From assembly GCA_965140785.1 (NCBI GenBank), contig OZ223491.1, positions 29,796-93,795 of the forward strand: a stretch of DNA of 64,000 nucleotides, read 5' to 3'. Position numbers and translations under genes: made by a program. Positions 38,216 through 64,000 of the stretch are shown in pieces. Each line of letters opens with the position of its first letter. The stretch's first letter is position 1. The notes under the pieces were generated by a model. It was not told where the DNA came from. It worked only from the letters and a program-made list of their open reading frames with translations, and searched no databases. The stretch is from an uncultured Ruficoccus sp. (GTDB lineage Bacteria; Verrucomicrobiota; Verrucomicrobiia; Opitutales; Cerasicoccaceae).

Positions 38216-38290
38216 ATAAATTTATATTATTTAGTAGTCATAGCAAGAATAATAAATTATTTATTTTTATTCAAATTTTTTTATTAAAAA

Positions 38291-41484: not shown

Positions 41485-41603
41485 TTATTATTTTATTTTA
41501 TTATATTATTATGTTGTATAATTTTTAAAAATTAAATATTTATTTTCAAAGAATTTTTTATAATTTTTAAAATCAAAATTTTAATAATAATCATAAAATA
41601 ATA

Positions 41604-42147: not shown

Positions 42148-42774
42148 AAATTAATAAATTTTGTTTCAATATATAAATTTGATTTTTTTGGGAATTAAAT
42201 TATTCTAAAAATTCATACAATAATGTATGAGAATTTAAAAAATAAAAAAAAATAAAAATATTAAAAAATTAGTTTAACAGATATGTATAGGATGTATCAA
42301 TGGTTGAACTGGGTCTATAATATTGCTTCAATTAATTTTTAAGTTATTAATTATTTTCCTAAAACAACAAAAATATTTTATTTATTAAAATTATATATTA
42401 TCTCTCTATATATTTTTTAAATATAAATAAATATATTTTAATTATATTATGTGTAACTCAAAAAAATGTTTTAAATACAATCATACAAGAATATTAATTT
42501 TGATTAGGATTAATTTGTTTCTTTCCCTTTGTTAAGAATTTGAAAATACTTTGAAATTGGTTAAAAGTTTTTATCGTATGAATATTTGAATGACTGATTT
42601 GTTCATTGTTTATAGATAGTTTATCAGGAAATTTAATATATTTTATAGAAGTATTTAATTGTTTTATTAAAAAATTAAAATTTAATAAAATTGAATTTTT
42701 TTTCTTATTTAATTTTAAAATCAAAATTTAAAAAATTCTTTAAATAATCATAAAATATATTTAATATTAAAATG

Positions 42775-42940
42775 GTTTGAGTCATCAATGCTTTACCGTT
42801 GAGGACTTGGCTTAAAATTTAAGCTTAGTTGAAATTGCAATAAAATATAAGATAAATTAAAAATACAAAAATTTAAAGTTTTTTCAATAATATAAATGTT
42901 TATATTGTTTGGAGATATTTTTATTGTAAAAACTTCCTGA
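42775..42940 (+). pseudogene. Degenerate partial duplicate of the U-box gene 3' end
   Basis: TTGAGGACTTGGCTTAAAATTT...AAGCTTAGTT...GCAATAAA aligns by eye to 42070-42230, with indels. Confidence 0.6.
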
Positions 42941-42973
42941 ATTATTCTGAAAATAAATTCAAAATAATATTAA

Positions 42974-45900
42974 ATGAAAATATCCATTCTAATTTTTCTT
43001 TTTCTTTTCACAACACTTAAAAGTGAAAAAGTAAATAACATTTCTGTTGGAGATTATTTGGAATTGAGCATTGATCCCTCGAACAAAGAAGGAGCATTGT
43101 ATTATCAACTAATCTTACAAGAATCAGATCTTAATGATGAAGCAGAAATAGGAGTATTCGTTCGTCCTTTAGATTATCGAAGTGACCCTGATATTTATAT
43201 TTCAACAAAGGAGCAATATCCTACAAGAGATATTAATGAAATCAAGTTTATTTAATTAAAAATTTTTAAATTAATAAATAAAGATGTGAAGTCTATGGTT
43301 TTGATGTTTGCTATTTGCCTAAAGATTAACTTATAGTGAATTAAACTTTTTATATTGCAGTCAACTGTGAAACTACTTGTAAATTTTCCCTGCAAATTGA
43401 TTAAAACAAACCCGATCTCATCCCATTCAACTCCACAAAACTCCTAAAACTAGAAAAAAATAGCGAACACCTCTGCCATTTAAATATCCCTCCTCTCGAA
43501 AATCTAACTACTTTCAAAGTACTTTTCAAATTCTTAGGCCTTAGCTCCCATGAGCCAACAGTCTGAATCTCCCAGGGAAATAAGCCAATTAACACAAACT
43601 GGAATTAAGATTCATTACCAGTGCTTTATGCGCCATTTGGGAATATTTTCCTAGCAAGTAAGGAACAATTTCGTGAAGGGTTTTGCACTGATTGTAATTA
43701 TACGATTTCTATAGAAGTTGAGGATGAAACATTGGTGAAAATAATTAGTGTTCCTGGAGAGTTAGTATAAAATATTAGTCTTTGGGAAAATATTGATGAT
43801 GGTGTTATTATTAATTAAACTTAGTATTATTAGCTAAGTACAACAAAATCTGTATATGATGAATAATACAAAATAACCTGGAACGATGAATAAAAAATAG
43901 AAGATACCTTAGTGTTTGAACTTAAAGTCTACTAAGGAAATCCTAATCTTTATATCACTTGTGATGAGATTCCTCCAAACTTACATGCTTCTACCTGGCA
44001 AGCAACTTCCAATGTAAGTGAGGCTATTATTCTGGGAAAGGATGATTTTGCTTAATTAGCCCCAGGGTCTTGTAAGAATATAATTATAGCAATTAATGGG
44101 GATGAATGGAGTGCGTATAGGTTTTAAGTTAAGAAAGTGGGAAAAACTATGGTTAATACTATTAGGACTGGCGAATTAGAAGTTGGAATGCTTGAAAATG
44201 GACATATTTAAAATTTTATTTTAACAGTTAATAAATAAGAACTTTAGAGAACTACAGATGTGATAATTGATTTGATAGCTCTAAGAGGAAATCCTGATTT
44301 ATATATTAAAGGGTGCAAACAGATTCATAATTGTACAATTACAGAAACTGATATTGAATAAGCCGATAAATTAGCTCATGAGGAATTATAATTTTTTGTA
44401 TTTTCTAGAAATATTGATAGTAAAAAACTATAATTTGTTTTTATTTTATGGTTATATTAAAAGGCGAACATTACGAATTTATGCTCAAAAGAGAAAATTG
44501 CCTTTCCGATGATATTGTCCCAATGTGCTTTTATGTGATTGGAGTATTTGCTAATAATTTGAATTCATTATCCCCAGATACAAAATTTAATTTAATGGTT
44601 TCTTTTAACAACGAACTACTCTGGCTCTAAGAAAACATACCTATGAAAATTACAATGCAAACTAATAGTTCAAAATACTTTAGATTTCAAGTAATGGATG
44701 ATAAGGAAATAAGCGAAATTAGTTTTCAAATGACTTTTCTTTATGGAGAAGCTGAAATTGTTGCGAGTAGATCAATCGAAAGACCTAATTTAAATATGTT
44801 TGATAAAATTGGAATATTTTCTGTGAATTTGGTTAATTTTAAGAAGGAACATGAGGGAAATTTAAAGGGGAATTATTATATTGGAGTTTATTCAATTGCG
44901 GAATGTGCGTTTACAATGAATACATTTTTGATAAAAAATAAATCTAATAGGATGAATCCTTTTATTAATTTAGAAAATGGAATACCTTAAAGAATAACAG
45001 GAAATATGAATGCACCATTCACTTTCTTTATATTTTCAGTCCCTGATTTAGTTAAGCCAATAGAATTAAAATTAACAGTTGAAAAAGGTAGAAATATTAA
45101 ATTTTATTTAAATTAAATAGGAAAGAATCTTTTTAATATTTATGCTTTAAATCTAAAATCAACTGAGGATGATGTCATTGTACCAACAAAAGTATTTTTT
45201 TAAAAGTATTAATTAATCTTCAGATATTTAACTCTTATGAATCCTAATTAAATGCATTGATTATTGAACCAACTCAATACTCTGAAAAATACTTCACAAT
45301 TTCTGTAGTATATGAAGGTAACTCAGATTATTAATTTGCCATCGAATACCACACCTTTGATAAAGTTATTTCCTTACAAAAAATAATAAATTATTTTTAA
45401 AGTTGCTTACCTTATTCCCAAATGTAATTTAGCAGAACACTATAATCCCTTCCCATCCATTAATCTACAAATTTACCCTCACCAAAGAAGATATTTTTGC
45501 ATATATTAGTTTGTCCTCAGAGCTCTCAGGCGCATAACTTTAGTTTTCCTAGGATATAGACTTTAAGGATTCCTCTGCAATTGAACATAAGGAAGGTCAT
45601 CATTCTTCCTCCAAGATTATTATGTTGGGTGGAAATGCTATTTCTTAATATTGTAACTTTTCTTCATCGGATTAATGCTAACTTTATGCCTCTGTTTCGA
45701 CCTAAAACATATTCAATACTGAAGTTGTTCTTTTATTAGAGAAGTTTTAAGAGATTTAAAGTATTGAAGAAATGAAATATCCAGCTGTTGGATTAATTGA
45801 AGGAATGATGCTTGAATTAGCTTTAGAAGAAAGCTAAGTAAGGCATTTTTATTTGTTAGCCAAAAACAGCGAAATCAATTATATAATTCAGGTTGTCACC

Positions 45901-48891
45901 ACTGAAGGAATCGTTGATTTGAATTACTCAATCATTAATTAAGCTAAGAAAAATTAGGGGTAGCCTCTTGATTAGCTGTATCCAAGAATTGAAGATAAAA
46001 CTGTTATTATTAAATAATTCTAAATTTAAATTTTTCTAGTATAAATCTGATATCCCTGGACATAAGCACACTTGCATTCGCTAAATTTAAATCACAGACC
46101 AAGATTTTTCCGAAGCTGAATGCAATAATAGCGACTGCATAATCTTAATAACTCTAAAATTGCAATCCCTGTCCTCTTAAAGTACTGAATCCTCTGGGAT
46201 TAAAACCTTCACAATTTAAGTAATAACAGGCACATAGAAAATTCATAATAATTAGCAAATCTCTGGAATAATTGAGAAAGGAGAATCTAATATTTATTAC
46301 TTTGAAAATAAGATATGTCCATCCTTATTAACAGTCACCTTAAACGTTGAATCCATCAATTCTGATGTAGATCTGTTTGTAAGGAAAGGTCTTTACAAAA
46401 AGGAAGTTGAATCAGAATAATAGAAATGAAATTCAACAAATGAAGGGCTATCTGCAGATCAGGTATCTATCAATAATAGTGATTGCGGGTACTATACAAT
46501 TGAAGTCATAGGAATAAACGAGATAGAAAATCATTATTAACTCTAAATATCTTCATATAAGAATACAAGATTATTCAAATTAGAGAATGGAAAACGAGTA
46601 TCAATTAGTTTAGAGAAAGGAGAAAATGTTAATTTTTATTATGAGAAAACTACAAAGGATATTAAATCTGTTAGCTTTAATTTTGATAAATAGTATGGTT
46701 CTGGCACATTGGAGATAATCAGAGGGGAGCTTGGAACTAAAGTAGAGGAGTCATTAAATTTTGATAAAATATGTAAGAAGAATAAATTATAATGTGTATA
46801 AATACCACTGCCATCCCGAATCCCATCCTACCACGTTGACCTATCCGAATTCCCTAACGTATGAACCCAGAACCCCTGCTTAATTCTAATCCGATACAAA
46901 CCCTCAGAACCCAGCAATATTTCCTTACAAATAATAGGAGTTCTTAACACAGGGTGGATCAAGGAAGGAGTCTCCCAATTTATCTATTTCAATGGCAAGG
47001 AACAATTATAAGAGAAGGCCTTTGAGTACAGGATTTATGACTACAGTAAGGATATTGAAGTTTAAGTGCATGTTATGAGTGGTGAGTAGTTTTTGTAGGA
47101 AATTATTGTTATGGGCGAACCTATTTTGGAGGAAGAAAATTAGGATGATTATGTTTTCTATAGTGGGAAGGTTAAGGATGGGATGGGTTTTACTATTTCT
47201 AAGGAAAAATTTGTTTAGAAACAAGCTTTGCTTTTAATAATTAGGACTAATATCAGAGATAATGATGAAAAAAAGAATATTGTTGCTAATATTATGATTA
47301 ATAAAAAGAAGGATAAAAAGGAAGCACAAAAGATAGCTTTATTTCAAGGAGCTAAAGTGAATTTAAACTTTGAAAAAACTGGTGAAATAATATAATTATT
47401 TTTTATTGATAAATATCGAGATACTCCCTAAAATTACTATTTCACAATATTAACAAAGTCCCTTCAGTTTTCTACTCTGAATGATTTTATTAAGCATGTG
47501 AGGGTCAATATAACTTGTTAGTGTGTGAAATGTGATAAACAATTAATTGATAAGGAATTTAATATAGTTTTGGATGCAAATTCTGTAAGATATCAAAATG
47601 CTGATATTCATGGAAGTGAAAATATGTTTTATCTTTGGTTTTAAAGCGACATGAAAGGAATTTTCTAATATTCAATTTAGATTACTTATTTGAAATCAAT
47701 ATAAACTTCTAAGGCTTTTGCTTTGTAAATTATTTATAATTTTGAAAGAATTATGGTATTACCTTAAAATTATCTTTATACAGGAGAATTGTTTGTTACT
47801 ACAGAAGACGTGAAATAAATATTTATGATCTACATAGAACAAAAAGGAACCCTTGTAATACAATTTGATAAATGTTATGGTCTATACGAAATCAAAGGAT
47901 CAACATCCCTTGATAATTTTGAATAAAAGTTTAATGTTAATAAACTTGAAAGCCATCATTATAGTTCTAATAACGGAAAATAAATGATAAAAACAAATGT
48001 CAACCCTGGAATTTACTACATTGAAGTTACCGCTTTAGCTGGCCCAGGGAAATACGATCCAGCTTATCTAAAAGTTATAGGAAGATATTTTATCTATAGG
48101 ATTTAAGCTTAAGTCATGAGCTCGGATGTAATTCCGTAGTTTGTGGTAATGGCAGGAAATGAAGGGAATTTAGCCCATAAATTAATTCATAGTGGGAAAA
48201 CTTTGTAAGTTGATGTAGACAAATTAGAAATTAAGGATTTAGATTAGTATAAAAATGCTAAAAATTTATTTTCTAATTATTAATTTGTGTCATTTTTGTA
48301 CGTAACTTTAACAAGAAATGAAAACCAACTTTTGCAAACGTTATAATTTTTTTAATTTTTTTAAAAAGTTTTAAAAAAAATAGCTGCAAATTTACAACTA
48401 AGTCATTTCTATAGTATTAATGGTTTAATCATGCAATCTATACTAGTATAATAAATAAAGTCGACAATAATAAAAATATTGACAATATTGAGAAAGTTAC
48501 TTTTGAAATCCCACTTTAGAGATTAGCTTCTGACCTATATATTGAAGAAAATGAATTAAATTAAATTTTTATCTCAGCAACAATACTTGCCGTATTTAAA
48601 GAAGCAGATATTGATGATGTAATTAAAAATATTTGGAATTTAGAACTTAATGGCAATGCAATAGAAATCGATTATAATTAGAAATTAATAAATCTCAATC
48701 AATAAAAAAGTGTTATTTGGAAATATTTGAGTTTTTTGTTTTTTATTTATTTATGGTCAATAGAATACTTTTTTTTTATTGGAGTCATTGGCCTTGTTAT
48801 CTTTGGATTAATTCTTTTTAGAAGATATAAAATTATTAAATCTTAAGTAAGATTTCAAATGAATGAAGAAATTGAAAAAGCGACATTATGA
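42974..48891 (+). CDS. Very large type-I membrane protein with repeated PPC-like beta domains (many introns)
   Basis: Signal peptide; repeated SDPDIYIS / GNPNLYI / GNPDLYIK / SDVDLFV motifs; C-terminal TM, RRYK tail, ...EKATL-TGA. Confidence 0.75.
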
Positions 48892-48950
48892 GAATTTTTA
48901 AATTAATTTGAAAAAATTGATTTTATTTCAAATTAATAAGTTTTAGTGAA

Positions 48951-49809
48951 TCAAATTTTTTCAGTATTAGTATACTTTTTATATTTTAGTTAAAGTCATA
49001 GGAGCTTTTTCATATTTGTTTGTTTTATTTTTATTTTCACTAAGGCTTCTATCCTCTTCTTACAAGTATTTTAGTTTTACTGAATTTTATTCGATTTTAC
49101 TAAGTAATATTTAAAAAGGAGTGTTAATTTAATGTTTGATTTTGAAAGGGGAAGATTTCTTTTAAATTAAAATAAGGTTAAAAAAAATTTTACATAATTT
49201 GTAGAATGATTTTAATCTAATTAATCAAGTGAATGTACTTTTTTTATTTCTTATTGTTTTAATACAATAAATTTTGAGAAGCTCTCCTATTGTTTTTCAG
49301 ATTTTTATTCATTTAATCCTTTATCATATGATGGAGATTTTTAAATCTTCAAAAATTATTAAAATATATTTTTTTGAATAAACCATCTTATTGCTATCAG
49401 CTAATATTTCAACTACATCATTACTTAACTAAGAAGAATAATGGCGCTAAGATAGTTTAGCATAATGCAAAGAAAGTCTTCTTGGTTCTACAAACCGATT
49501 TTTAATATGGAAATTGTTTTCAGCAAAACTATTTTAAGTAATTTCTTATCCTAATTATTTATATAGAGAATTGCTTTAATTTTTTTATTATTCATTAATA
49601 CTTTTTAATGAACTTTACTTCATTTCATTCACAGTAAAATATTAAGCAATTTTTTCATCATTTGTTGGAGACTAATCAAGAATAGCTTTTAAAAACTCTC
49701 ATTCTATTTGGATTTTATTTTTAATAATAGTATCAAAAGACATCTTTAATATGACTTAGTTAATGAATTTATCGCAAGCGGATAGTATTTTTGTATTAAA
49801 TTGGGACAT
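48951..49809 (-). CDS. Hypothetical protein (intron-containing)
   Basis: ATG at 49809; coding-like frame with TAR=Q and TGA=W; no recognisable domain; 3' frame is a best guess. Confidence 0.4.
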
Positions 49810-49898
49810 TATTATTTAAAGAAAACTGAAATATATATTAATTATTTTATAATATTGTTTTAATAACGTTATTTAAATTTTATATATTACGAAAAGTC

Positions 49899-52800
49899 TC
49901 AATTCTTGGATTCATTAAAATTAATTGAACCATAATGTTCTTTTAAGTCAAATAAAATAAAAATATATTATAACTTAATTATTCCGTCATTTTTTTTTCA
50001 ATCACACGTTCTTATAATAAAATCAAATAATTATATAATTACCTAATTTTTTAGCAATTTCTGTTTCCATGGATGCCCCAATCTTTTATGAATCACCATA
50101 TAAGCCAGTTTAGCCTAATTCATTTTTTGATAACAATTATTTTAATCTAAAAATTTAATAAATTACAATTTTATTTACGATTCTTTGATGATGAATATAT
50201 CTTGATCTAATAATAATAATAATATAATATACAATATACTCTAAATTTTAAGTTTTTTATTTAATGAATCCAACTTTCCTTTTAATAATTCTCCTTCTGG
50301 ACTAAGTTCAGTTAATTAATTTTACAAGATTCTGAAGATAAAAAGATATTTATTTCCATATTTCTTTTCAAATTAGTTAAAAACTTTTGAAGGCAAATCT
50401 GAATCAATAGATGCTATAAGTCTAATTCTTTCATATAGAAATGCTATATCTTTTTTCTAAGTCTATTGCACATACGAGTCATTCACAAAAGCAATTAATA
50501 AATTTAACATAATTATCATAAGCAACAAAGTACAAATAAAGAAAATTAGCCAAATAAAAAAATTGGAATCAGTAATTTCTTCATTTGTAGCTTCTTCAAA
50601 TTAATCAAAATCTCCTAGTAAAACTTTGTAAAGTATTTTCGTCATTGTAAATAAAGAAGTAGTTTCAATTTCAGGCTTCCATCGATTTTACATTTAATTA
50701 ACTAAAAAAAGAGTTAAATGAAATTAAAAAAAAATTAACAAGTCAAAGTAAAAGCAAATACCATCCATAATAAAGTGATAAAAAAGTATTTCATATCATC
50801 AAAAACAAATATTAGCATCCTTGTAATGAATGACATCTGCTAAATTGCTCTAAAATAAGTAAGAATTTTGACAGAGCAAAGTAAAACTGATAATGAAGAA
50901 AACAATCTTAAAGTAAAACTATTTTCTGCTTATTAAACGAGATCATAAATTAAATAAACAACTGTAATTAGAATAAATGCACAATCAAACCAATTCCATC
51001 TTTCTCTTAAATAATATCTGATTTAACCTTTCATTTATCCAAGTTCTTTCCAAAGAAAATTAATTAAAAAAATCAGTAAAATGCTATCAAGTATGTTAAG
51101 TAAAACTAATTTCGTCCCCTCAATTTTATCTCCGTAATGAAAAACAAAAATTTAAACCATCAGTCCTGCAATAAAAAGTCCAAGCCTAATAAATTCTGAC
51201 CAATACTGTGAGCTTGCATAATTATCCCATTTTAATTTAGCAACTTCCCAAACAACTTTACTCTCAAAAATCTTATTATTAACATCTAAATTTGCCAATT
51301 GCCTGAAAAAATTGCCTTATGGCCCTATCAGCCCTGGTATAGTTACAACATTCCATTAACCTATTTATTTATCCCCTTCAATATACTGAAATGACTATTC
51401 TTTAAAATCTTCATAGAGAGAATCTGAAAGCTTGGACATTGGTATTCCTGATGTTTCAGTTATTAGCATTGGAGCTCTTACTTCTAAAGTTTCAAAGAAT
51501 TGTATTGCATTTGCTGAGAGGTTATTTCCTGATAAAGTAAAAAAATTCTGTAATTATGTAGTTGAATTTATTCCAGTAAACGGTTAAGAAAGATTTTTTT
51601 GGTTTGCCATGCAAAATTTAAATAGCTATTCTTTACAAGAGCTAAATTTACCGTAATGAGAAATATCAAAAATTGAAAATCCAAATTAATCAACTTCAAA
51701 GGATAGCTTTATTGGTGGATTAATAACTTAAATTAAATGTAAATAGGCTATAAGCAATTGTTCATCATCTAAATATAACAGAAAATGCAATATTGGGACT
51801 TTTTTATTATATCCAATATAATATTAATAAAATCCAGTCGCAATTTTTTTAATTCATTAATAAAATTATTATTTGTTTGGATCATTTCTTAATTTTTCAA
51901 AAAAACTTTATTTTTTTGTTTTTAATTTTTCTTATTCTTAATTATCAATTTATTTTGATTGTTTCTATTTTTATTCCCAAGCCATAGATCTTTAAAGTTC
52001 TTTTAAAATTTCGATAAATTATGATCCATATTTTGGAAGTGCATTAATATTTGGTATATTAAATAATTCATTGAATCTATTTAAAATTATAAATACAAAA
52101 ATAAAATAACAATTTTAAATTTTTCTTTTTTTATTCATTAGCGAGTAATTTTCATTTAAATTCAATTAAACTATTTGCAGTCACTGTTTGAAATTAATCC
52201 TCTTCATATTTTTATGATTTATAAAAACTATTTTCCTATACAAATTCCCAAATTTTATCCATTTTCCTAATTTCAATAATAATTTTAAAATTTACCTGTT
52301 TCCAGTATTTTTGACCCCATAAATAATATCCTTATTAGCAAATCCAATTTTCATTGAGCCATAATCTAATGGTTCATTTATTATAGGTAATAAAGTATAT
52401 TTTGGCTTATTTCATTACTCCTTGCCAGTACGAAAGATTTATTGCCTAAAAATAGGATAAAATAAAATTAGTGAAAACTTATCAAGAAAAATAGCTACAA
52501 GAAATTCAGCAGTTTAAGATAAGTAAATTTCTTTAATTTTCAGAGAGGATTAGTCAATTTGCAATAATTATTAATGATTTTCTACTCTCCACAACTTAAT
52601 AATTTATGAAGTTTGAGTATTAGCTAAACTACCAAGAAAATTGTCGTCTATAGAAAAGACTAAGAATTAAATGAAATGTTAATAATCAGCAAATAGCTTA
52701 AAATCTTAATTTTTAAAATTATAAATTCTTATTTATTAATCTTATCCTCCACTGGCTAGTAATTAATTATTATTTGAAAAGCATAAAGCATCAATTCGAT

Positions 52801-54899
52801 TTATATGTTATTAAAGAGTTTCTTTCATTGCTTTTTCTTAAACATTTCAAATTTAAATAGTATTCCAAACTGTGAGAGCAAGTAGATTTTTATTAGGAGA
52901 AACAGCAATTTAATTAATAAGATTGGTATTCCCTTTAAAAATTGATTTTTCTATCACAGTTTCTAAATGCCAATCATAAATAGAACTAGAAAATCCTATT
53001 GCAAGTATATCTCCACTATTAGGCTAAAATTAAATTTATCTAGGGTAATCATTTTCCACAGTGCTTTCATAGATTGCTATTTATTATTTTGTTTCTAAGC
53101 TCCAGAGCAATATGGTTCCTTAAGAAAGTAAGCATGCTAAGAGTTTATCATCATTAGAAACACAAATTTAAATGGAAATTTCATTAATTGAAAAATTTTA
53201 TATTAGAACTTTTTTTGTTAGATCCCAAATTTTTAGTGTCTAGTCTTGAGAAGTGCTGCAAAGAGTTTTGCAGTTTTTACAAAAAGTAATAGACATAATT
53301 TTCTATGAATTGACATGTCCATATAAAACACAAAATTATGAATAAGTTTCTAAATTTCAGATTATTATAGAGCCGTCATTTAAACCCGCTGCTATAAATT
53401 TATTATCAATTGAAATATCAAGACACTTTGCCGAGTCCTTAAGATCTTCTAATACAAATTAATCTGATTTTATGTCATTTGCTCGCCAAAGAAGAATTTT
53501 CTAGTCCTCTGCCGAACTGGCCATAATATTTCCATTAGTTGAAAAAACAATAGCATTAATATCATCTTCTAAATGATGGTCTAGCGTTTTAACTTTATCT
53601 CCTTACTCTGACCATACTTCTATAAGTCGGCTTTACTATGACCAAGCAATTAACCCTAATGCTTCATTATAAGCTAAAACATTTATAAAATAAGGTTCTT
53701 CATCTTCACTCACTTCTTGCCAACCAATTTTTTTTACACTTTTTGTTGAGTTATTTTCATAAGTTGTTCCATAATTTTAAGCTTCAATGAATCCTTAATT
53801 TGTTTCAAGCCACATTCCATTAAAAGGCCGTTTATATTGGACTTCATCGTCTAGATCAAATTTTCAGATTTTTAATTAAATATCCGGATCTTCACTTAGA
53901 ACTATTGCATGCTTTTTAGTCATGGCCACTCCTCTGATTTAGAACCCATCTTTTGGACCAAGTATGGCCAGTTCAATTTTAGTTTCTGCTTAATATACTC
54001 TTACAACCTTTTCAGAGCCTACAATTATATTTTTCATGTCTGTTGAAAAGCCAAGTGTGTTAATTGGGTTCTAGATTTTGAATTAAAAATATTCTGATTT
54101 GGTTTCAAGATTCCAAAACCTAATTGTTTAATCTTCAGATCCTGAAATTAGAAACTTTGCATTTTACTCTTCATTGCAGAAATCTAGTGCGCTGATTCTT
54201 TCTTCATGGCCTAACAATTAGTGCCATTCCCGTTTAGGCCAAAAGCACAACCTCAGAATATTTTCTTCTGATATACAGAGCCAATTACTTTCTCCAACTT
54301 TTTCATGCGAAAATGCTACTTATTAATCTAATTTTAATTCATCATCCTCGTTTTTAAATTCTTCAAGAGTTGTCTTTGTTGAAATATCCCAGATTTTTGT
54401 TGTTAAATCATCAGATCTTGAGGCAAGAAGTGAAGATGTTGAATTGAAGCTGAGACTAGTTACGTAATTGTCATGCCCAGTTAATTTTTACACGAATCCA
54501 AATCGGCCTTCTGTTTTTTAATATAAACTTATAGTAAAATCCTAAGAGCCACAAGCTAAATATTACCCATTTTCAGAAAATTTTATACAAGTAATTCATT
54601 CTTCATGATGGGTTTCAGTTTGCAGTTCAATAATATCTTTTTGACTTAGCCAATCATAAATAATTATGGATCTAAAAATATTGTTATCATTAAATAAAAT
54701 ATTACCCAGATTCGTAGCCAACAGCTAAATAGTTTTCATAAACTGTTAAACAAAGTGGATTTACATTTTCAATTGCCTTCAATCTTGTCATTTATTTTTT
54801 TTTCTCTGTATGAAAGCTTATTGAGTTATCATAGTTGTGATCAAATTCAAACTAAACAGAATTCTTGATGTTTTCGATAATCTTTTAATTTTAAAACAT
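49899..54899 (-). CDS. Multi-WD40-repeat protein fused to a TRP-like 6-TM cation channel domain
   Basis: Many GH...WD repeats (e.g. LCSTSQDQTLKIWD), then KLKWDNY, WNWFD, pore LLGDF and S6 IIMLNLLIAFVNDSY. Confidence 0.82.
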
Positions 54900-55053
54900 T
54901 TTTATTTTTAGTTTAAAATTATTAATTTCAAGTAAGTTCTGGTATTTATTTAAATCTTATTATATATAAAATTATTATTGTTAATTTGAAAAAAAAAACC
55001 AATATTTATAATAATTTAAGTTATATAAATATTTAAGTTTTATATTTTGAAAA

Positions 55054-55282
55054 AAATTGTCTTCAAATTGTCTTCAAATTGTCTTCAAATTGTCTTCAAA
55101 TTGTCTTCAAATTGTCTTCAAATTGTCTTCAAATTGTCTTTAAATTGTCTTCAAATTGTCTTCAAATTGTCTTCAAATTGTCTTCAAATTGTCTTCAAAT
55201 TGTCTTCAAATTGTATTCAAATTGTATTCAAATAATATTCAAATTGTATTAAATTGTATTCAAATTGCATTCAAATTGTATT
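55054..55282 (+). repeat. 11-bp tandem minisatellite (AAATTGTCTTC)n
   Basis: 14 near-perfect units to ~55207, then ~6-7 AAATTGTATTC-type decayed units. Confidence 0.95.
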
Positions 55283-55396
55283 TTTCTAAATTGAAATTGA
55301 TCATTATATTTAGAACAATCAATTATTAAGAAAAATTTCATAAAATTAATTTATATAATTAAATTAATTTGTTAATTACTCGTAAATTTTTTAAAA

Positions 55397-57353
55397 ATGC
55401 TCTTTTATACAAACTAAAAAAAGCCTAATTAATTAAACAGAAGTGATTAAAGCTATAATAGACATTATTAACAAGATGAAATCGATTTAGAATTTCATTA
55501 AAAAACAAAATATGAAAAAAATTAAGTTTACAAAAATATAATATTATTTTTTAAATTTTTAACTGATTAGTGGTCAGCACGATATGAGTCTTCTTTACGT
55601 ATAAAAATTGAATCATTACTTAAATCAAAAAATGATTTAGAAATAGAAATTAGCAATTTACAAACAATTATTAAAGAGGCAATTTTATTTATTGAGTTGT
55701 AATTTATTGTTTTAGCAAAAAAGTAAAATTCTTCGATTAGCAAATAGTCTTAAAAAATAAACATTTGAAGTTGAAAATAAAGATAAAGATATTAAATCTC
55801 TCACTTTCAAATTGTACAAGTAATTTATTTTAACAAATTAGATAAATTTAAATATTTCTAGTTTAAAATAAAATAAAAATACAAAAGAATTTTTAGAATA
55901 AGATACGTAAGAAGTTCAGCAGGATGGTGATAAAGTATTACAATAATAATAATAAATTGCAATGCTTTAAGAATAATTAATTATCTTAGAAAAAACTATT
56001 TATTCATTACAAAATTAAAGAGTAATTAAAAATATTTGTAATTTATTCTCTAAAAGGATAGTTAAGCAAACTTTGAAATTCCGAATTAATTTTATGCTTA
56101 AACATTGTAAAATTATGATTAAGAAATTAATGAGCTGAAAGAAAATAAATTTGAATCTGATTAACTGATAACAAAATTAAAATTAGAAGTAATATCATAT
56201 AATTCTGTTAATATTTAAATAGTTGCAAAACTCATAATTTGTAAATAATTAATAAAACAAAGTGAAAAATTCATTATAAGAGTAATTGCAGTAAAATTAT
56301 GAAATTATTGAGAATATGATTAGTTAGAATTTGCATCTTCAAAATGTTAAATTATTAAATAATATAATTTTCTTAAGGTTTTTAATCAATTGAATTTAGA
56401 AAAATAAGAATTTTCAGAAATTATAGAAGTATAAAATAATTTTATTGATAATTTAGTAAAAATGTTATTTAATTTATTTTTTTTAAGACTCAATTAAAAT
56501 AATAAAATCAATAATTTTAAGAATAATTTTGATCAAATAAAAAAGTTTTAAAATTAATTAATTATTATTTTTAAAAAAGAAATTAGAAATAATTGAATAA
56601 AGAACACTTAGTCCTATACATAATTATTAAATTTATTAGAAGGATTCTTTTCCTGAAGTATAAAAATAGCTTTCTTTTTAGTTTTATTTTTCTTAAAAAA
56701 ATTATTATTAAAAAAGAAATAATTAATAATGTTTGCAAAATAAATTTTGTATGATGTGTAATCAATATAAATCTGATTATTTTAAAGCTTTATAAGAGAA
56801 AGATAATTTTAAACGAATGTATGAATAACTAAAAAAAAGTTAAATTATATCAACAAAATAAATAACAGAAAAGTCTCCTAAAAACAGTTATGAAAATTAA
56901 GAACTAATTTTGGAAAAATAATAATTAAAAGTTATATTTTATACTGTGAAATAGTTAATAAACTTAGAAAACAATTAAATAGTTATTAAAGAAAAATGAG
57001 TTAGCGGAATATGAAAAATAATAAATTTAATTATAAATATCAAAAAAATAAGAATAAATTGAAAAATTAATAGAATAGAAAAGATTACTAGAAGCAACAT
57101 TAGGAAATCAAATTATTACACTTCAGTTTAAATATTTTTTCTTAACTGAAATATATTTATCTATAGATCAGCAAATAATTGTTACAAAGGAGAAGCAAAA
57201 GAGCTAATATAGAAAACAGAGTTAATCTAAGAGGAAAATGAAAGCTTAAAAAATATAATTAAAAGACTTGAATTTAAAATTGATAAATTTGAATAATTTT
57301 CACCAAGAATTTCAGAAATATAATCAAAAAAAACAATGCATATTAAAAAATGA
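55397..57353 (+). CDS. Coiled-coil protein (many introns)
   Basis: Q/E/K/L-rich heptad-like exons; ends ...HIKK-TGA-TGA. Confidence 0.6.
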
Positions 57354-57391
57354 TGATTAGATTATATATTTTAAATTAAAATTTGAATTTT

Positions 57392-59680
57392 TCAAACAAA
57401 TTTTAGCATACTTTCTAAAAATTATTTCAATTTTAATTTAATTAAAGTTATTATTCCCATTATAAGTGCATCTAAATTCATTAATTAATGATAATGAAGA
57501 ATAGTTTTGCATTTTTCTATGGCTTTTGTTAAATTTTATTCAGTTCCAAGACCATATTCATGCATATAACTTTCTGCTAGAAGTTATTCTGGGATAATAT
57601 ATTCTACTATCATTCCTTTCTTATAAAAGCTTGTTAACTGATAAAACATATAGGCTTATGTATAATTTGAAGGTAACTATTTACTCCCATAAAAAAGTAA
57701 ATTTCCAAGTTAATAACCCCCTATTTAATTATTGTGAAGTAATTCTTTATATGAGTATAATATCTATAATATTAATAGTAAAAATTTTTAAAATAACTTC
57801 ACAAATTTTTGTATCATTATTAAAACATGATTAATTTAATTCTAATTTGGTTTGTATTAAAAATTAAATATTTTCATAGCCTTAGCTTAGTCCAATAAAT
57901 GCTGCCATTTAATTATATAGATAGCTTCCGAAGAAATCCTCGTTTTAATAAGCTTTGAGTCCTTTTTCTAAAAAACCAAAAGAATTTGCTTTTTCCATTA
58001 TTAATTTTCAATAATTTTCTGCCTAGTATTCTAAAGCAATAAATTAAAAGTAATTAAGATTTACAATCAATCAATTCTTCAGAATCTTCGCTGTTCACAG
58101 TAAATTACATAAGGTTATACATTGAGGATAATTCGTTTTTATTAGCAGCTAATTTCATATAATATATTCCTAAATCTTGGGATTAAGGAATAATATCTTT
58201 ATAGCCATCATAATATAATGCTCCAAGATTAGCCATTGCCTCAACATTTCCAAATTTTACAGATTATTAAAAATAATAAAGAACTTTACTAGGATCTTCT
58301 TTTTAAAGTTCTAAATTATATAAATATAAATAAGCTAATGCATTATATCCAGCAGCTGCAAAAGATGAATTAGAATTAATTGTTTTATTAAGAAGATCAA
58401 TTGCTTTAGTATAATTTTTTTTCATTCCTATTCCTTATAAATTCATAATGCCTAAAGCATGCTAAGCATATGGCTCATTTTATTAAGCTGCCTAATTAAA
58501 ATAATTTATTGCTTCGTTATAATTTTATTCAATGCCTTATGCAGGATCTCTATTAGAAAAAACGATTAAATTAAATTCATAAAAAATTATAATAATATTT
58601 ACCCTTTGAAATACAGTTCCCCTAAGTCTAGTTAAGATTAGGCATTACCATTTTCAGCACTGTGCTTTAATATTTAAACAGAATCTTTATCGATTTTTTT
58701 TTCCTTTTATTAAATTGGATTCTTATCATACTTTTTAAGAGGAGGTAAAGGGGTATTTTAAATTCCTTAACTTTCCAAATTATTAATTGAATTTCTAGCT
58801 GCAACTTAAAATTTCAATGAAAAAAACAAAAATTACTTAAGCCAATTTGAAGTGCTTGTTTTCATTCATGGCAATCTTTATAAAAAAATGGAGTTTGCAA
58901 AAAATTTTCAATTTATAATTAATTCATAGAAATATTATTAAAATCATTAAGAAATAAAGACATTCATTAGTGCAATTCTAATAACTAACTTTCTGAATTG
59001 CATAAAATATTTGAAGCAAAATAAATAGCAGATGCTAAAGCACTCTCTCTATTAAGACCAACACTTAAAATATTGAACCAAATGTCTTATGGAACATTAA
59101 AGATTATTTAATCTTAGATTTTTTAAATTAGCAAGGACTAATAATAAAAAAAGAATAAATAGGCAGGTGCATCTTTATGACCTAATTTATGGGCTTCTAT
59201 TAAATAATAATAAGCTTTAACAAAATTTCTTCCATTTTAATCAATTTTGTAGGTTTCATCAAGAGTTTAGAGTTTTTCCCACTTTTTTAATTATTTCTCA
59301 TTCATTTCAAATTCTAAATCATCACAATTACTTATTATTTAATTTGTGTATTCCTAATAATTTAATTCAGCAGTCGAAACGCTTGGATTTGGCATTTCTT
59401 TATCAATATAAGTTAAAGTTCCAAATAAATAATGATTTGCTAATTTCATTGCCGCATGAGAGTTTTACTCTAGTACATAAGATCTTTATAAACAATACTA
59501 AAAATCGGTAAAATTTCTTATTTCTGAATGTTCTAGAAATTTAATATAATTTCATAACATGCTTCTTGGCTCAAATTAATGTATTTAGTTTTCATATAAT
59601 AGTAGCTAAGGAATTTTGAATGAATAAGATGCTTTTATAAAAAGAAGCAATGAAATCATAAAGTGATATTAAATTGGCAT
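57392..59680 (-). CDS. SEL1-repeat protein, SEL1L/Hrd3-like
   Basis: Signal peptide; AQHALGIMNLQGIGMKKNYTKA, AMANLGALYYDG and YMHEYGLGTEQNLTKA; ends ...LKFV-TGA. Confidence 0.8.
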
Positions 59681-59844
59681 TTGACGTGTAAATTTTTTAA
59701 ATAATTTGAACTTAAAAAATATAAAAATCTTATTATATCACAACAAGTTGAACTTTTTTTTTTAATAAACAATAAATAAAAGAATTTTCACTTATTAAGC
59801 AAATTATATAATGAACAATTAGACTGGAAAAGTCATCTAAATTT

Positions 59845-61379
59845 TCAACAGCAGCTAAAAAATTAAAAGCATTTCATCCAAAAAGAAATCTTGCAAGAAT
59901 ATTATCTTTGCAAACATTCAGAAATATTCTTTTGAATTTCTTAATTGCTTGTCTAAAAATAAATTAAAATTTAATAAATAAAAAAATTTTCTTACACTAT
60001 AATAGCATTTTATTAAATATTTTTTTGGAAGCTCAGTTTTTAATAAAATATATTTAATTATTTCTTAATATTATCATCTAAAACAACAGTTTATTATTAA
60101 ATTAAAACCTAATAGCAGCTTCAATTGGTATCTCTTCAAAAGCTTTATTATTAATCTATTTCAAAACTAAAATTAAATAAAATTTACCAAAGAGACTTAT
60201 AATGGGTTAGCCTTGAAGTCAATTAAAAATTTAACTACCTAATTTATTTGAATAAAACAATTAAATTGCAACCTCAATATTCCCATATTTGCAAGCTTCG
60301 TATAGAGGAGTAACGCCAAACATATTTCTTTAATTAACTAAATGATCAGGATCAGATGGATCATGCAAATTGTGAGAGATATCTAAGCGTAGGAGCTATT
60401 TCATGAAAGATATATCCTTTGGGGATCCTCTTCCGGCAAGTTAGACGAGATTGTTAATTTTTAATTAACTTGAAAATTCATTATTATTATTTGCTATTAT
60501 TTATGAAGTTTATGAATCTGGTTGATAAATATTGCAGGATTTAATTTCTGTTTCGATATTGTTCTAAGTTTTTAATAAAATTTAATTAATATTTACTAAA
60601 TCAAGAGATTTCACTTAATTTGTTCTCAATAGCCAAACTGATGTAAATATATGACTCAGTTTATTTCATTTAGATTTTCCAACATTTGGCTTTCTTAACA
60701 AAAATAATTAAGAACATTTAATAATACTTTGAGTTAATTTTATTAGATCCTTTTATTTTATTCTAAAGCAAGAATCTTTATTTAACATTTTTTTCTTTTT
60801 TTAAACATTCAGAATTTCATTCTATTGCATTACTATTCCTTAATTTGCAAGCGCTTTAAAAACTCTCTTATTCTTATTTTTAAAGAGGAGATAATATATA
60901 TGAATCATCAATTTAAATATTCTCATAAAAGATCATTGGCTTAACAGTACTATTATTATTACTTTCTAATGGTGATTTTATTTCTAAATCTTAATTGATA
61001 ATTTTTGGGAGTTTAATTTGAGTAAATGAATTAGATTTATTGTTGGCTGGTAAAATTTATTTTTCTATATTTTTAGAAAATGTTAGTTCATTTTATTATT
61101 CTAAATTATTTTAAGAATGAGAATTATTTCTTAAAATCTTAAAGAGTTTAGAATTATTAAAAATTTATTATTCATGAATCTTAGGTTATTTTTATCTTCA
61201 GTCATTTAGATCATCCTCTAAATCATCAGGAGTATCAACTTATTAAGTTCGAAATTATTTATTTATATCTAAATAATTTTATTTAATACTCTTAAGGAAC
61301 TTTAAAAAATTTTATCTTATGGAGTTTTTGGGTCGTTTTCTGTTGTTGAAACCAAATTAAAATTTACTGGATCTGACAT
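59845..61379 (-). CDS. Ankyrin-repeat protein with C-terminal -CC motif
   Basis: GVTPLYEACKYGNIEVVKFLIDFKANP and EIPIEAAIR(TGA=W)QYQEII; ends FFSCC-TGA. Confidence 0.72.
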
Positions 61380-61685
61380 TATAAATTAATATATTATTTT
61401 TTTTTTAATTGAATTTAAGTAAAAATTACCAAAAAAAAGCATAATTATTGTGATAATTTTAATATTTATTATTATTTTTTAATTTTTTAAAAAAAAACCC
61501 AAAATTATACTAATTGTTTTTAAATTATTCAATCAAAATTAAAATTTTGAAATTTCATATTTCATTCCTTTGAGTTCAAATTCATTAAATAAAATCTCTA
61601 ATAGTTTTTAAAATTTGGATTTTATTTGTTATTGGTTTTTTAAAGTTTAACTGAAGAATAATAAAATTTCAAATTATTAGAAAAA

Positions 61686-63458
61686 ATGAAAAAAAATTGG
61701 AGTACAATTAATAAAAAGCAAAATATAACCAATCTTTCTGAAATAATGAAATCAACACAAACTTAAACGAGAAAAAAATTACTTAATGATATTTTTTCTG
61801 TGAAGAGAAAGCTCTTTTTTGATTAATAATAATCAACGACAGGAAATTTTTAAATGGAAGAAGAAGAAAAGGAATTAACTAATTAAAGCTTTATTGTATA
61901 GCCTTTATACACAGAAACAATTTATAATAATAATTATCAACCAATATCAAAAAATTATTTATAACTTGAAAGTATTGATAATACAAGCCCCATGTTTAGT
62001 AATTTTAATTTTTTGTAATTATGTTAAATTTAAATTTTAGTTTAAAATAATTAGCCTGATTATAAAGAATTTAAAACATTTAATGTTCCGAATGTTGAAA
62101 AAACTTTACCAAAACAACGAAAATTACAGGATCCTAATTTATTATATAGGTAAGATCGAAATACTGATTAACAATAATCTAAAAATTAAATACAATAATA
62201 ATAATATGAAGCTTTACCTTTAAATTATCATTAACTCCATGATAATCTTCGCAAGATTGGCAATTATATCTACGATAAAAGTAAATTACTAGGAAAGGGT
62301 TCCTTTAGCAAAGTTTATAAAGGATATTCTATTTAATTTCCTCGTTTTCCTTTAGCAATTAAATGCACATCACGTGATAATTATAATCTTCAAGAAATAT
62401 AAGTTTTGAAGATAGTTTCATCAAAAAATGTTATAATGTTGAAGGATGCAGTATAACATGGAACTAAGAATTATATGATGATGGATTATTGCGATGGTGG
62501 TGACTTAGGATAAAAGAAATTCTAGAATCTTGCAATTGTCTAAGTTTACAATATTTTCAGATAAGTATTAAACGGAATGAAAGAACTGTAAGGACATGGA
62601 ATCATTCATCGAGATTTAAAGCTTGAAAACCTTTTATTAAAAGAAAATTGTGTAAAAATCTCAGATTTTGGATTCGCTAAACAATTAAAGTTGCTAATAA
62701 TATCTATAAAGGATCATATTTATTTTTTATAAAGATCACTTGCAGCTGAAAGTGTAAAATGCGGGACTCCAGCAACAATGGCCCCAGAAATACTCTTTAA
62801 TCATAACCATAAAGCTATCTACACAACAAAATGCGATATTTGGTCATTAGGGATTATTTTGCATTAGCTTGCTTATGGGTGTCATCCATTTGATTATAAT
62901 TCTTAAAGAATCCTGTAAAATATAAGAATTAAGTTATTTTTTGTTATAAATATTTTAAATATGAAAATGTGTAGAATTCCAAATAATAAGTAAGATAAAT
63001 ATATTGAAGATTTTTTGGGTAAGTCGTTGGCTTTTAACCCTAAATAACGAGTAATATAAGCAATATTATAATTTTTTTTTTTTTTTTAGATGAATTGAAA
63101 TGAAGTATTTTCTCACTAGATTAACTATTTGCCTCCAGAAAATTAACATTCTCATAATAAAACCAGAAAGTTTATGAATTAATAATATTAAAAAGTAAAT
63201 ACAATTGTTGAAGAGAGTCATATAAGATCAAGAATGGAATAATAACCATTTAATAAATAATAAATAATTTCAGAAAAACCTTAAAAATGTGTGCCAATTT
63301 AATTATACTAATCAATTAATTAAGTAGTTAATGAGAAATAAGATAAAAATTAAATGTAATAAATAGCTTTGTGTTAAATTGGTAAGTATGAAAGAATAAT
63401 TTTTTTTATAATTATTCTTATTATCATTTTATTAATAACTAAAGCCAATTTAAAATGA
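61686..63458 (+). CDS. Ser/Thr protein kinase (ULK/CAMK-like) with hydrophobic C-terminal tail
   Basis: [34 protein letters not shown] and DIWSLG; ends [23 protein letters not shown]. Confidence 0.88.
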
Positions 63459-63538
63459 AAATAACTTTATTATTTTTTATTTATATTTATTTATATTTTA
63501 TATTTAAAAAATTTAAAATTTTTATTTAAACTAAAAAT

Positions 63539-64000
63539 ATGTTTACATAATTAAAAGCAATTCTTGTGAAAAATTTTCTAAATTTGATTCGAAATAAAGG
63601 CGATCTACTTCGAGAAATTTTTGTTCCCTTCATAGTAGTAATTTCCAGAATCTTTGCCTTAAAATGTTTAAATACAAAAACAAACTTTAACTAAAATTTT
63701 AGATAATTTATGGAGTGTAGTCGTAATGCTTCCATTGATATTGCCTTAAATTGTGAATGGATTAGTTCGTAAACTCATTGTTGATTTTGTCTATGAAAAA
63801 AGCTAAAAATTCAAAGAAACTCAAAAAGTATTATTATTTGAACTACTAATAACGCCTTTAAAAAGATAATGGGACTTTCCCAATCAATTTATGTTCTAGG
63901 CTGAATATTATATGCTTATATTAAATCAATAGTAATAATAGCAATTTTTATTCTGATGGTGGTTATTGCCTAGGCTTAGATAGTAGATTTATAATAAATT
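63539..64000 (+). CDS. ABC transporter subfamily A, 5' part (runs off the window)
   Basis: MFTQLKAILVKNFLNLIRNKGDLLREIFVPFIV, the typical ABCA N-terminus, followed by TM segments. Confidence 0.7.

What the first reader, a model, noticed from the sequence alone, without database searches (positions are those of the whole stretch)
52847..63098. Independent TGA=Trp evidence in WD40, ankyrin and kinase motifs
TGA occupies the WD-dipeptide Trp at 53357-53359 (DGSIII*NL), 52847-52849 (TIQI*NV) and 53864-53866 (LKI*KF), while neighbouring repeats use TGG (KIWD). It also occurs at 54596-54598 (HEE*ITCIKFS), in the ankyrin gene at 60074-60076 (AAIR*QY) and after kinase subdomain XI at 63096-63098 (PKQRMN*NEVFSH). 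TGA and TGG therefore look synonymous in several unrelated genes.
Basis: partly seen in the sequence, partly recalled or inferred. Interest (0 to 1): 0.8.

Follow-up and report, generated by a model that had tools for sequence, protein, structure and literature searches.

The report
Ciliate DNA reading TGA as tryptophan
The second half of this window is nuclear DNA of a ciliate, wrongly joined to a bacterial contig, in which TGA means tryptophan inside genes yet also ends them, a kind of genetic code already known from a few ciliates.

Summary
All six TGA triplets exist at the stated coordinates. Four sit on tryptophan columns. Three of the four TGAs in the WD40 gene occupy the WD-repeat Trp column, where other repeats have TGG x8 and TAT x3 (chance 2e-5). 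The kinase TGA lies on a column that holds W in 43 of 53 homologues. The fifth site (HEE*ITC) is at a variable position. The sixth, "ankyrin", is misquoted and lies in a frame with no domain match.

The reading TGA=Trp holds, but it is only part of the picture.
- Window 30078-64000 is 22-24% GC eukaryotic DNA with 31-45-nt GT..AG introns.
- In-frame TAA and TAG are best read as Gln.
- TGA also acts as the stop codon at four gene ends.
- The kinase uses TGA as Trp and, 120 codons later, as its stop.
- This DNA is fused abruptly to 60% GC bacterial DNA, cutting genes on both sides, so the contig is a chimera.

The code matches the known ambiguous ciliate code (NCBI table 27 type; Karyorelictea, and predicted in Plagiopyla). 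Intron length and the best named hits argue against a karyorelict or heterotrich, and the ciliate's class is unresolved. The scan's earlier notes on this genome did not cover this DNA.

The parts
1..30077 (.). Bacterial part of the contig (50-65% GC) with ordinary long ORFs under table 11. The last ORF, on the minus strand, is cut at its 5' end by the junction.
30078..64000 (.). Ciliate-like nuclear DNA (about 22-29% GC per 4-kb window) that runs to the contig end. It has no telomere repeat, tRNA gene or rRNA gene.
30472..31761 (-). Phospholipase C fragment: EF-hands, the X-box and a 44-nt intron. The Y-box and C2 part are missing because the junction cuts the gene.
37067..38215 (+). TPR plus cyclophilin gene. 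TAA sits at FMI-Q-GG and NGT-Q-F, there is a 31-nt intron, and the gene ends ...VNCG(TAA)IKK(TAA)ED followed by TGA at 38213-38215.
39210..41330 (-). USP47-like ubiquitin hydrolase, one long exon with many in-frame TAA and TAG codons.
52412..54700 (-). WD40 repeat gene with 14 repeats. The next in-frame TGA, at 52412-52414, is a possible stop. The 5' end was not mapped.
53864..53866 (-). TGA at the WD Trp column (LKI*KF).
53357..53359 (-). TGA at the WD Trp column (SIII*NL).
52847..52849 (-). TGA at the WD Trp column (TI(TAA)I*NV).
54596..54598 (-). In-frame TGA at a variable WD40 position (GHEE*ITC). It is sense but does not show which residue is encoded.
60074..60076 (-). TGA in a frame without any domain support.
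62271..63458 (+). ULK-like, tail-anchored protein kinase. The part mapped here includes introns of 45 nt and 39 nt (63051-63089).
63096..63098 (+). TGA at a conserved Trp column after kinase subdomain XI (W in 43 of 53 homologues).
63456..63458 (+). TGA used as the stop codon of the same kinase, six codons after the C-terminal membrane helix, where the homologues also end.

Best explanation
Window 30078-64000, and likewise the tail of contig C39, is macronuclear-type nuclear DNA of a ciliate. An assembly artefact joined it to contigs of a 60% GC bacterium.

The ciliate reads UAA and UAG as glutamine. It reads UGA in two ways: as tryptophan inside coding sequence and as the stop codon at gene ends. 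This is an ambiguous, context-dependent code of the NCBI table 27 type.

Shown here:
- TGA lies on Trp columns in two unrelated genes.
- TAA and TAG lie on Gln columns.
- TGA sits at the expected C-termini of four genes.

Inferred from published work on Condylostoma, Loxodes and Blepharisma, and not tested here:
- UGA is decoded by a near-cognate tRNA-Trp(CCA) with a shortened, 4-bp anticodon stem.
- UAA and UAG are decoded by cognate suppressor tRNA-Gln.
- Termination wins only where UGA lies close to the poly(A) tail, through eRF1 helped by poly(A)-binding protein and a very short 3'UTR.
For: Composition and junction:
- GC falls from 0.58 to 0.32 between adjacent 400-base windows at about 30 kb.
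- The sequence switches within a few bases at 30077/30078.
- A bacterial ORF is cut at its 5' end and the ciliate PLC gene lacks its 3' half.
- The same kind of join at C39, about position 276030, truncates a calcineurin (PP2B) gene.
- The low-GC DNA matched G000 only among 41 genomes searched, so none of the 40 relatives (4 of the same genus) holds it.

Eukaryotic and ciliate nature:
- The genes include ULK-like kinase, USP47, PLC, calcineurin, cyclophilin, ribosomal protein P2 and TTC5.
- Ten GT..AG introns of 31-45 nt were inferred.
- The best named homologues are Paramecium, Pseudocohnilembus, Ichthyophthirius and Stentor.

TGA = Trp:
- The WD column holds TGG x8, TGA x3 and TAT x3, with P = 2e-5.
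- Pfam scores are best with W.
- An HMM built only from the TGG-bearing repeats ranks W first of 21 readings: 389.5, against Y 386.4 and X 383.1.
- The kinase TGA column holds W in 43 of 53 homologues.
- In-frame TGA makes up 19 of 5557 codons (0.34%), against 1.58% and 6.56% in the other two frames.

TAA/TAG = Gln:
- Q scores best in three Pfam families: UCH 146.9 (E 142.0, X 130.2, Y 121.6); Pkinase 159.6 (157.1, 146.7, 147.3); cyclophilin 94.9 (91.6, 85.5, 82.0).
- TAA lies on a kinase column that holds Q in 47 of 53 homologues.
- TAA follows GDIHG in calcineurin once a 35-nt intron is removed.

TGA = stop:
- Ribosomal protein P2 ends ...GGLFGDDDF followed by TGA.
- Cyclophilin ends at a TGA 8 codons after NCG.
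- TTC5 ends at a TGA where the OB-domain profile runs out.
- The kinase ends at a TGA six codons after its tail anchor, as in homologues P0180, P0181, P0183 and P0206.
Against: - Only about 64 kb of this organism is available.
- No tRNA, eRF1 or rRNA gene is present, so the decoding mechanism and the taxon are not shown.
- No RNA or poly(A) data could be used, so the stops are inferred from homology of C-termini in only 4 genes.
- Whether TAA or TAG ever terminate is open. The cyclophilin TAA right after NCG could in principle be a stop.
- In the Pfam scores Q beats E by only 2.5-4.9 bits per family.
- Of 19 in-frame TGAs in my crude coding segments, only 4 could be placed on Trp columns. Most of the others lie in regions with no domain match, and some are stops.
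- The chimera was inferred from sequence alone.
Confidence: 0.88

Rival explanations
1. The code is of the Condylostoma type (NCBI table 28): all three codons are ambiguous, and UAA/UAG also serve as stops near mRNA ends.
For: All three codons are sense here, as in Condylostoma. The cyclophilin TAA directly after NCG could be a stop. Only 4 gene ends were examined.
Against: All 4 gene ends that homology could place end at TGA. The kinase reads through 19 TAA/TAG codons (16 TAA, 3 TAG) in the aligned stretch, including a TAG right after the kinase domain where homologues continue HQINI / HPINFL. Introns are 31-45 nt, whereas heterotrich introns are 15-16 nt (PMC11441545, passages read).
Confidence: 0.1
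2. The low-GC DNA is bacterial or organellar and uses table 4 (UGA=Trp, as in Mycoplasmatales, some reduced symbionts and ciliate mitochondria).
For: Low GC and TGA=Trp fit table 4. A Verrucomicrobiota lineage with UGA=Trp is mentioned in an abstract (PMC13462651, listing only).
Against: TAA and TAG are frequent in frame: 295 and 70 of 5557 codons. Spliceosomal-type GT..AG introns interrupt conserved motifs. The genes are eukaryotic cytosolic types whose best hits are ciliates. TGA also terminates genes.
Confidence: 0.01
3. The join is real: eukaryotic DNA is integrated in the bacterial chromosome, as a very large horizontal transfer.
For: Both low-GC blocks lie inside contigs that also carry bacterial DNA.
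Against: Genes on both sides of both joins are truncated. The composition is not ameliorated at all, and introns and a non-bacterial code are retained. Both blocks run to contig ends. The DNA was found in none of the 40 relatives searched. It is held at 0.85-0.88 of sampled words by runs of a second study under another organism code.
Confidence: 0.02
4. The in-frame TGAs are lesions, errors, selenocysteine codons or rare readthrough in an organism with the ordinary ciliate code (table 6: UAR=Gln, UGA=stop only).
For: TGA is rare in frame (0.34%). Conserved Trp sites checked in the cyclophilin, calcineurin and USP genes (AWLDGK, LIWSDP, HRWYKF) read W under table 11, so they are TGG. The best kinase hits are Oligohymenophorea, which use table 6 (their code per PMC11687900, passages).
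Against: Four TGAs lie exactly on Trp columns in two genes. Random lesions would not do that, and both genes are otherwise intact over hundreds of codons. By my count TGA makes up 19 of 62 TGA+TGG codons in frame.
Confidence: 0.03

Closest known systems
Karyorelict ambiguous code (NCBI table 27; Parduczia, Loxodes and other Karyorelictea)
   Same: UAA/UAG = Gln, UGA = Trp inside genes, and UGA is the stop codon. UGA is rarer than UAA/UAG in coding sequence (10.1101/2022.04.12.488043 and PMC11441545, passages read). All three assignments were seen here.
   Different: Loxodes introns have a mode of 17 nt, and 93% are 25 nt or shorter (PMC11441545). The ten introns inferred here are 31-45 nt. The best named homologues here are Oligohymenophorea plus one Stentor cluster; no karyorelict was among the named hits.
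Plagiopyla frontata (Plagiopylea): predicted UAR=Gln, with UGA as stop and rarely Trp
   Same: The same three assignments. UGA sits on highly conserved Trp residues in a few proteins (3 of 240 query proteins; PMC10553269, passages read). It is an intramacronucleate ciliate, which fits the best hits here.
   Different: No Plagiopyla sequence was compared here, so identity or kinship is untested. The share of UGA among Trp codons appears higher here (19 TGA to 43 TGG in my coding segments, which is an overestimate because some are stops).
Condylostoma magnum code (NCBI table 28)
   Same: All three stop codons are read as sense (Gln, Gln, Trp), with context-dependent termination (PMC10089648 and PMC10553269, passages read).
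   Different: In Condylostoma, UAA and UAG also terminate. Here, all 4 placed gene ends use TGA. Heterotrich introns are 15-16 nt (PMC11441545), against 31-45 nt here.
Blepharisma code (UGA=Trp, UAA/UAG stops) and the standard ciliate code (table 6: UAR=Gln, UGA stop)
   Same: Each shares one half of the assignments seen here.
   Different: Here both halves occur together, and UGA keeps its stop function.

Membership tests
NCBI table 27-type ambiguous code (UAR=Gln; UGA=Trp or stop) | UGA encodes Trp inside coding sequence | tested here: met
   Three of 4 TGAs in the WD40 gene lie on the Trp column (P=2e-5). Pfam scores are best with W. The kinase TGA column holds W in 43 of 53 homologues.
NCBI table 27-type ambiguous code (UAR=Gln; UGA=Trp or stop) | UAA and UAG encode Gln | tested here: met
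   Q is the best reading in 3 of 3 Pfam families tested against E, Y and X. TAA lies on a column that holds Q in 47 of 53 homologues. For TAG taken alone the evidence is thin: one informative column holds E in 43 and Q in 6 of 53.
NCBI table 27-type ambiguous code (UAR=Gln; UGA=Trp or stop) | UGA is the (main) stop codon | tested here: met
   Four of 4 gene ends placed by homology end at TGA: ribosomal protein P2, cyclophilin, TTC5 and the ULK-like kinase. The sample is small.
NCBI table 27-type ambiguous code (UAR=Gln; UGA=Trp or stop) | Sense or stop is decided by closeness to the poly(A) tail, with short 3'UTRs and depletion of in-frame UGA before the stop | not testable with these tools
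There are too few genes to measure depletion.
Class Karyorelictea (the taxon that carries table 27) | Very short introns (Loxodes: mode 17 nt, 93% at or below 25 nt) | tested here: not met
   The ten inferred introns are 31-45 nt. The published values come from PMC11441545 (passages). No rRNA gene is available for a direct test.
NCBI table 28 (Condylostoma) | UAA and UAG also act as stops | tested here: inconclusive
   None of the 4 placed gene ends needs a TAA or TAG stop, but the cyclophilin TAA after NCG cannot be excluded.
NCBI table 4 (bacterial or mitochondrial UGA=Trp) | UAA and UAG are the stops, and genes are uninterrupted ORFs | tested here: not met
   In-frame TAA makes up 295 and TAG 70 of 5557 codons. 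Introns interrupt conserved motifs.
WD40 repeat family (Pfam PF00400) | Reaches the curated cut-off of the profile | tested here: met
   162.8 bits with all stops read as X, against a cut-off of 27.
Ankyrin repeat family (Pfam PF00023, PF12796) | Reaches the curated cut-off in the frame that holds TGA 60074 | tested here: not met
   That frame has no match with TGA read as X, W or G. The other frame scores 14.7-17.9 bits, below cut-offs of 21.1-27.3.
ULK/ATG1-like protein kinases | Kinase domain most similar to ULK | tested here: met
   Pkinase scores 146.7 bits with X at the stops. The best solved relatives are ULK1, ULK2 and ULK3, with E from 1e-23 to 2e-20.

The most novel reading that the evidence does not exclude
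The DNA comes from an intramacronucleate ciliate lineage that is neither karyorelict nor heterotrich and may be near Oligohymenophorea or Plagiopylea. In this lineage UGA would have become a dual Trp/stop codon on top of UAR=Gln. That would be a further, independent origin, or the first genomic DNA evidence outside Karyorelictea and Condylostoma, of an ambiguous code with no dedicated sense-free codon.
Probability: 0.35. Interest if true: 0.55.

Novelty: new member of a known kind. Interest (0 to 1): 0.35.

Why it matters
For genetics, it adds a case of UGA serving as both Trp and stop within a single gene. The ciliate's intron size and nearest homologues do not fit the two classes where this code is established. 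If the lineage is new, it bears on how often ambiguous codes arise.

For data quality, a species-representative bacterial genome carries about 64 kb of ciliate DNA in two chimeric contigs. Read naively, this would suggest eukaryote-like WD40, kinase and repeat "effectors", a huge horizontal transfer, or a UGA=Trp code in a Verrucomicrobiota bacterium. None of these is real.

Tried and rejected
I used my own codon-usage segmenter instead; it is crude and covers only part of the coding sequence.
- Sequencing runs: no RNA holder was listed.
I had planned to compare strain differences (TGA against TGG, TAA against CAA) and to look for reads over the junction. Neither could be done.
- Related DNA elsewhere: the search for related loci in metagenome contigs gave 80 pattern matches, none confirmed. 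An exact 33-mer was not found in genome contigs or metagenome contigs.
- Taxon: a USP47 tree of 28 rows put the query on a 3.5-substitution branch beside a cnidarian, which is a long-branch artefact and useless. No telomere repeats were found at contig ends. No tRNA or rRNA gene lies in the low-GC DNA.
- Other in-frame TGAs (window 30634, 31351, 34744, 34906, 46427; C39 294748, 302748): most lie outside any Pfam match; 46427 lies inside a sub-threshold PPC match and 31351 inside a sub-threshold EF-hand_like match. They neither support nor oppose Trp.
- Contig C28 (28% GC) looked like more ciliate DNA but has long ordinary ORFs. It is a different low-GC bacterium and was left out of all counts.
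- Readings of TGA as Cys (Euplotes) or Gly (table 25) were rejected on Pfam scores.

Full report
**What the window is.** The window is G000:C20:29796-93795. Its first 30 kb has 50-65% GC. From about 30.08 kb to the end it has about 22-29% GC in 4-kb windows, and about 24% over the whole block. The change occurs between two adjacent 400-base windows (0.58 to 0.32) and, in the sequence itself, within a few bases at 30077/30078.

The whole assembly is 4.36 Mb in 50 contigs of about 60% GC. A second block of the same kind lies at C39:275751-305856. Contig C28 (28% GC) has long ordinary ORFs and is a different bacterium, so I left it out of all counts. Earlier notes of this scan call the main genome Verrucomicrobiota. 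I did not test that, and those notes do not cover this DNA.

**The join is an artefact.**
- On the bacterial side, a minus-strand ORF runs into the junction and lacks its 5' part. Ordinary ORFs of 250-434 aa lie just upstream.
- On the low-GC side, a phospholipase C gene has EF-hands and an X-box but no room for its Y-box and C2 domain.
- At the C39 join, a calcineurin gene breaks off after ...SAPNYCDVYNNKGAI.
- Both blocks run to contig ends, inside genes and without telomere repeats.
- A 2-kb piece of the low-GC DNA matched G000 only among 41 genomes searched. None of the 40 relatives, 4 of them of the same genus, holds it.
- Besides the run that may be the source, runs of a second study under another organism code hold 0.85-0.88 of its sampled words.
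- I could not look at reads across the junction.

**The DNA is ciliate nuclear DNA.** Read with X at every stop codon, the low-GC DNA still gives strong Pfam matches: WD40 162.8 bits, UCH 130.2, Pkinase 146.7 and cyclophilin 85.5. TTC5_OB and EF-hand matches came from a Q-coded reading with TGA as X. The solved relatives of the kinase are ULK1, ULK2 and ULK3, with E from 1e-23 to 2e-20.

Conserved motifs are interrupted by short GT..AG introns. I inferred ten, of 31, 32, 34, 35, 35, 39, 39, 39, 44 and 45 nt. Each restores a conserved motif, for example GDIHG|Q, GLLC|DLIWSDP and [15 protein letters not shown].

The best named homologues are ciliates:
- three Paramecium species for the USP47-like protein (32-33% identity);
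- a cluster that includes Stentor coeruleus USP47 (36%);
- Paramecium sonneborni, Pseudocohnilembus persalinus and Ichthyophthirius multifiliis for the kinase (38-46%).

Nothing closer than about 36-47% identity exists in the libraries searched. A USP tree was useless because of the query's long branch. The class of the ciliate remains open, and no rRNA or tRNA gene lies in the 64 kb.

**The six sites.** Five of the six quoted peptides are right. AAIR*QY is not: the frame with TGA 60074 reads CCFR*QYQEIIKYILLK. That frame matches no Pfam family whether TGA is read as X, W or G. The neighbouring frame has only sub-threshold ankyrin matches. This site is therefore no evidence.

**WD40 gene.** I count 14 repeats. 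The codon at the Trp position of the WD dipeptide is TGG in 8, TGA in 3 (53864, 53357, 52847) and TAT in 3. With 4 TGAs among 763 codons of this frame and 14 such positions, the chance of three or more hits is 2.0e-5.

- **Own HMM.** I built an HMM only from the eight TGG repeats. It finds 13 repeat matches. In two of the three TGA repeats the local alignment stops a few residues before the TGA (one lines up with the W state ungapped, the other needs a one-residue gap). The LKI*KF repeat is missed. Among 21 readings of TGA, W scores highest: 389.5, against Y 386.4, F 385.4, X 383.1 and C 381.7.
- **Pfam.** PF00400 gives X 162.8, W 170.9, C 161.9, G 163.9 and Y 167.5. PF25173 gives 195.5, 207.8, 196.6, 193.7 and 202.5. 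PF25174 gives 190.4, 203.0, 191.3, 189.3 and 195.4. Only with W or Y does the CDC20/Fizzy propeller match extend to residue 279, which is the LKI*K site.

The fourth TGA (HEE*ITC) aligns with Ser in the best solved WD40 protein, so it lies at a variable position. It shows that TGA is read through there but not which residue it encodes.

**Kinase gene.** After removal of the 39-nt intron 63051-63089, the text reads NPK(TAA)R MN(TGA)NEVFSH. I aligned the gene with all 53 homologues found at E<=1e-20. The TGA column holds W in 43, I in 4, M in 2, F in 1, L in 1 and a gap in 2. A strict motif search (P..R........H) matched 18 of the 53, and 16 of those have W at that place. Only 3 of 300 aligned query positions are W-majority columns. 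At those three the query has TGG, TGA and Ile. This is a second, unrelated gene with TGA on a Trp column.

**TGA is also the stop codon.**
- The same kinase continues for 120 codons, through many TAA and TAG codons. It ends at TGA 63456-63458, six codons after a hydrophobic C-terminal helix. Four homologues end with the same kind of tail anchor.
- Ribosomal protein P2 on C39 ends ...GGLFGDDDF followed by TGA. That the acidic GLF tail is the invariant C-terminus of P proteins is my recollection, not a tool result.
- Cyclophilin ends ...VNCG(TAA)IKK(TAA)ED followed by TGA at 38213-38215.
- TTC5 ends at a TGA where its OB-domain profile runs out.

All 4 gene ends that I could place use TGA. Whether TAA or TAG ever terminate remains open.

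**TAA and TAG.** In my coding segments (36 segments, 5557 codons), the in-frame counts are TAA 295, TAG 70, CAA 49, CAG 9, TGG 43 and TGA 19. TGA is 0.34% in frame, against 1.58% and 6.56% in the other two frames. The segments come from a crude self-trained codon model, so these numbers are rough and include some stops.

Read as Q, TAA/TAG give the best Pfam scores in 3 of 3 families tested against E, Y and X. The margin over E is only 2.5-4.9 bits. At the kinase column YNIFR(TAA)VLNG, 47 of 53 homologues have Q. One TAG column has E in 43 and Q in 6. TAA also sits at FMI-Q-GG and NGT-Q-F of cyclophilin and at GDIHG-Q of calcineurin. The conservation of those Gln residues is recalled, not tested here.

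**Comparison with what is known.** Codes in which all three stop codons are sense are described for Karyorelictea, Condylostoma magnum and Plagiopyla:
- Karyorelictea: UAR=Gln, UGA=Trp or stop, table 27 (10.1101/2022.04.12.488043 and PMC11441545, passages read).
- Condylostoma magnum: all three codons are ambiguous (PMC10089648 and PMC10553269, passages read; PMC4967479, abstract only).
- Plagiopyla frontata: Codetta and PhyloFisher predict UAR=Gln, with UGA on conserved Trp in 3 of 240 proteins (PMC10553269 and PMC11687900, passages read).

The assignments here match table 27. Loxodes introns have a mode of 17 nt with 93% at 25 nt or shorter, and heterotrich introns are 15-16 nt (PMC11441545). 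Here they are 31-45 nt. The named best hits are mostly Oligohymenophorea. I therefore file the code under the known kind and not under Karyorelictea. Whether the organism is Plagiopyla-like or something new cannot be told from 64 kb.

My literature searches turned up no report of UGA=Trp in Oligohymenophorea. They cover only the held library.

**Mechanism.** The mechanism is inferred, not shown. It follows the critique by Swart and colleagues (10.1101/2023.10.09.561518, first part of the text read). UGA would be decoded by a near-cognate tRNA-Trp(CCA) with a 4-bp anticodon stem, and UAR by cognate suppressor tRNAs. Termination would occur where eRF1 is favoured near the poly(A) tail. None of these components is in the DNA at hand.

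**Verdict.** The thing itself is a known type of ciliate code on contaminating DNA that is chimerically joined to a bacterial contig. Interest is moderate to low, unless the ciliate proves to be a new lineage with this code.

Noticed in passing
window 30077/30078; G000 contig C39 at about 276030 (L001 at about 2030): Two contigs of this species-representative bacterial genome are chimeras of bacterial and ciliate DNA, holding about 34 kb and about 30 kb of ciliate DNA. Genes are truncated on both sides of each join.
   Followed up: partly
window 62271-63458 (+): The ULK-like kinase carries a C-terminal membrane helix (tail anchor). Its ciliate homologues P0180, P0181, P0183 and P0206 do as well, so this looks like a conserved tail-anchored ULK-type kinase family in ciliates.
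   Followed up: partly
window 48100-52400 (-): A cation-channel-like gene (polycystin/TRP-like membrane helices) lies directly downstream of the WD40 gene and in the same frame. Because TGA is ambiguous, I could not tell whether they form one protein or two.
   Followed up: no
window 43010-48260 (+): A very large secreted-type repeat protein with repeated ...GNPDLYI... modules and a sub-threshold match to the pre-peptidase C-terminal (PPC) domain.
   Followed up: no
window 37067-38215 (+): TPR repeats lie upstream of the cyclophilin domain, the reverse of the usual Cyp40 order. It is not settled whether this is one gene or two.
   Followed up: no
   Followed up: no
G000 contig C28 (L003), whole contig: A 13-kb contig of 28% GC with long standard-code ORFs. 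It comes from a third organism, a low-GC bacterium, in the same assembly.
   Followed up: partly
L008 7882-7979 (-); L007 3033-3107 (-): A tRNA-Sec gene on contig C15 and a group II intron domain on contig C44, both in the bacterial part of the assembly.
   Followed up: no
window 63051-63089 and C39 PP2B introns: Four of the ten inferred introns (39, 39, 39 and 45 nt) have lengths that are multiples of three and carry in-frame TAA or TAG. In an organism that reads those codons as sense, retained introns of this kind would not be caught by premature stops unless they contain TGA.
   Followed up: no
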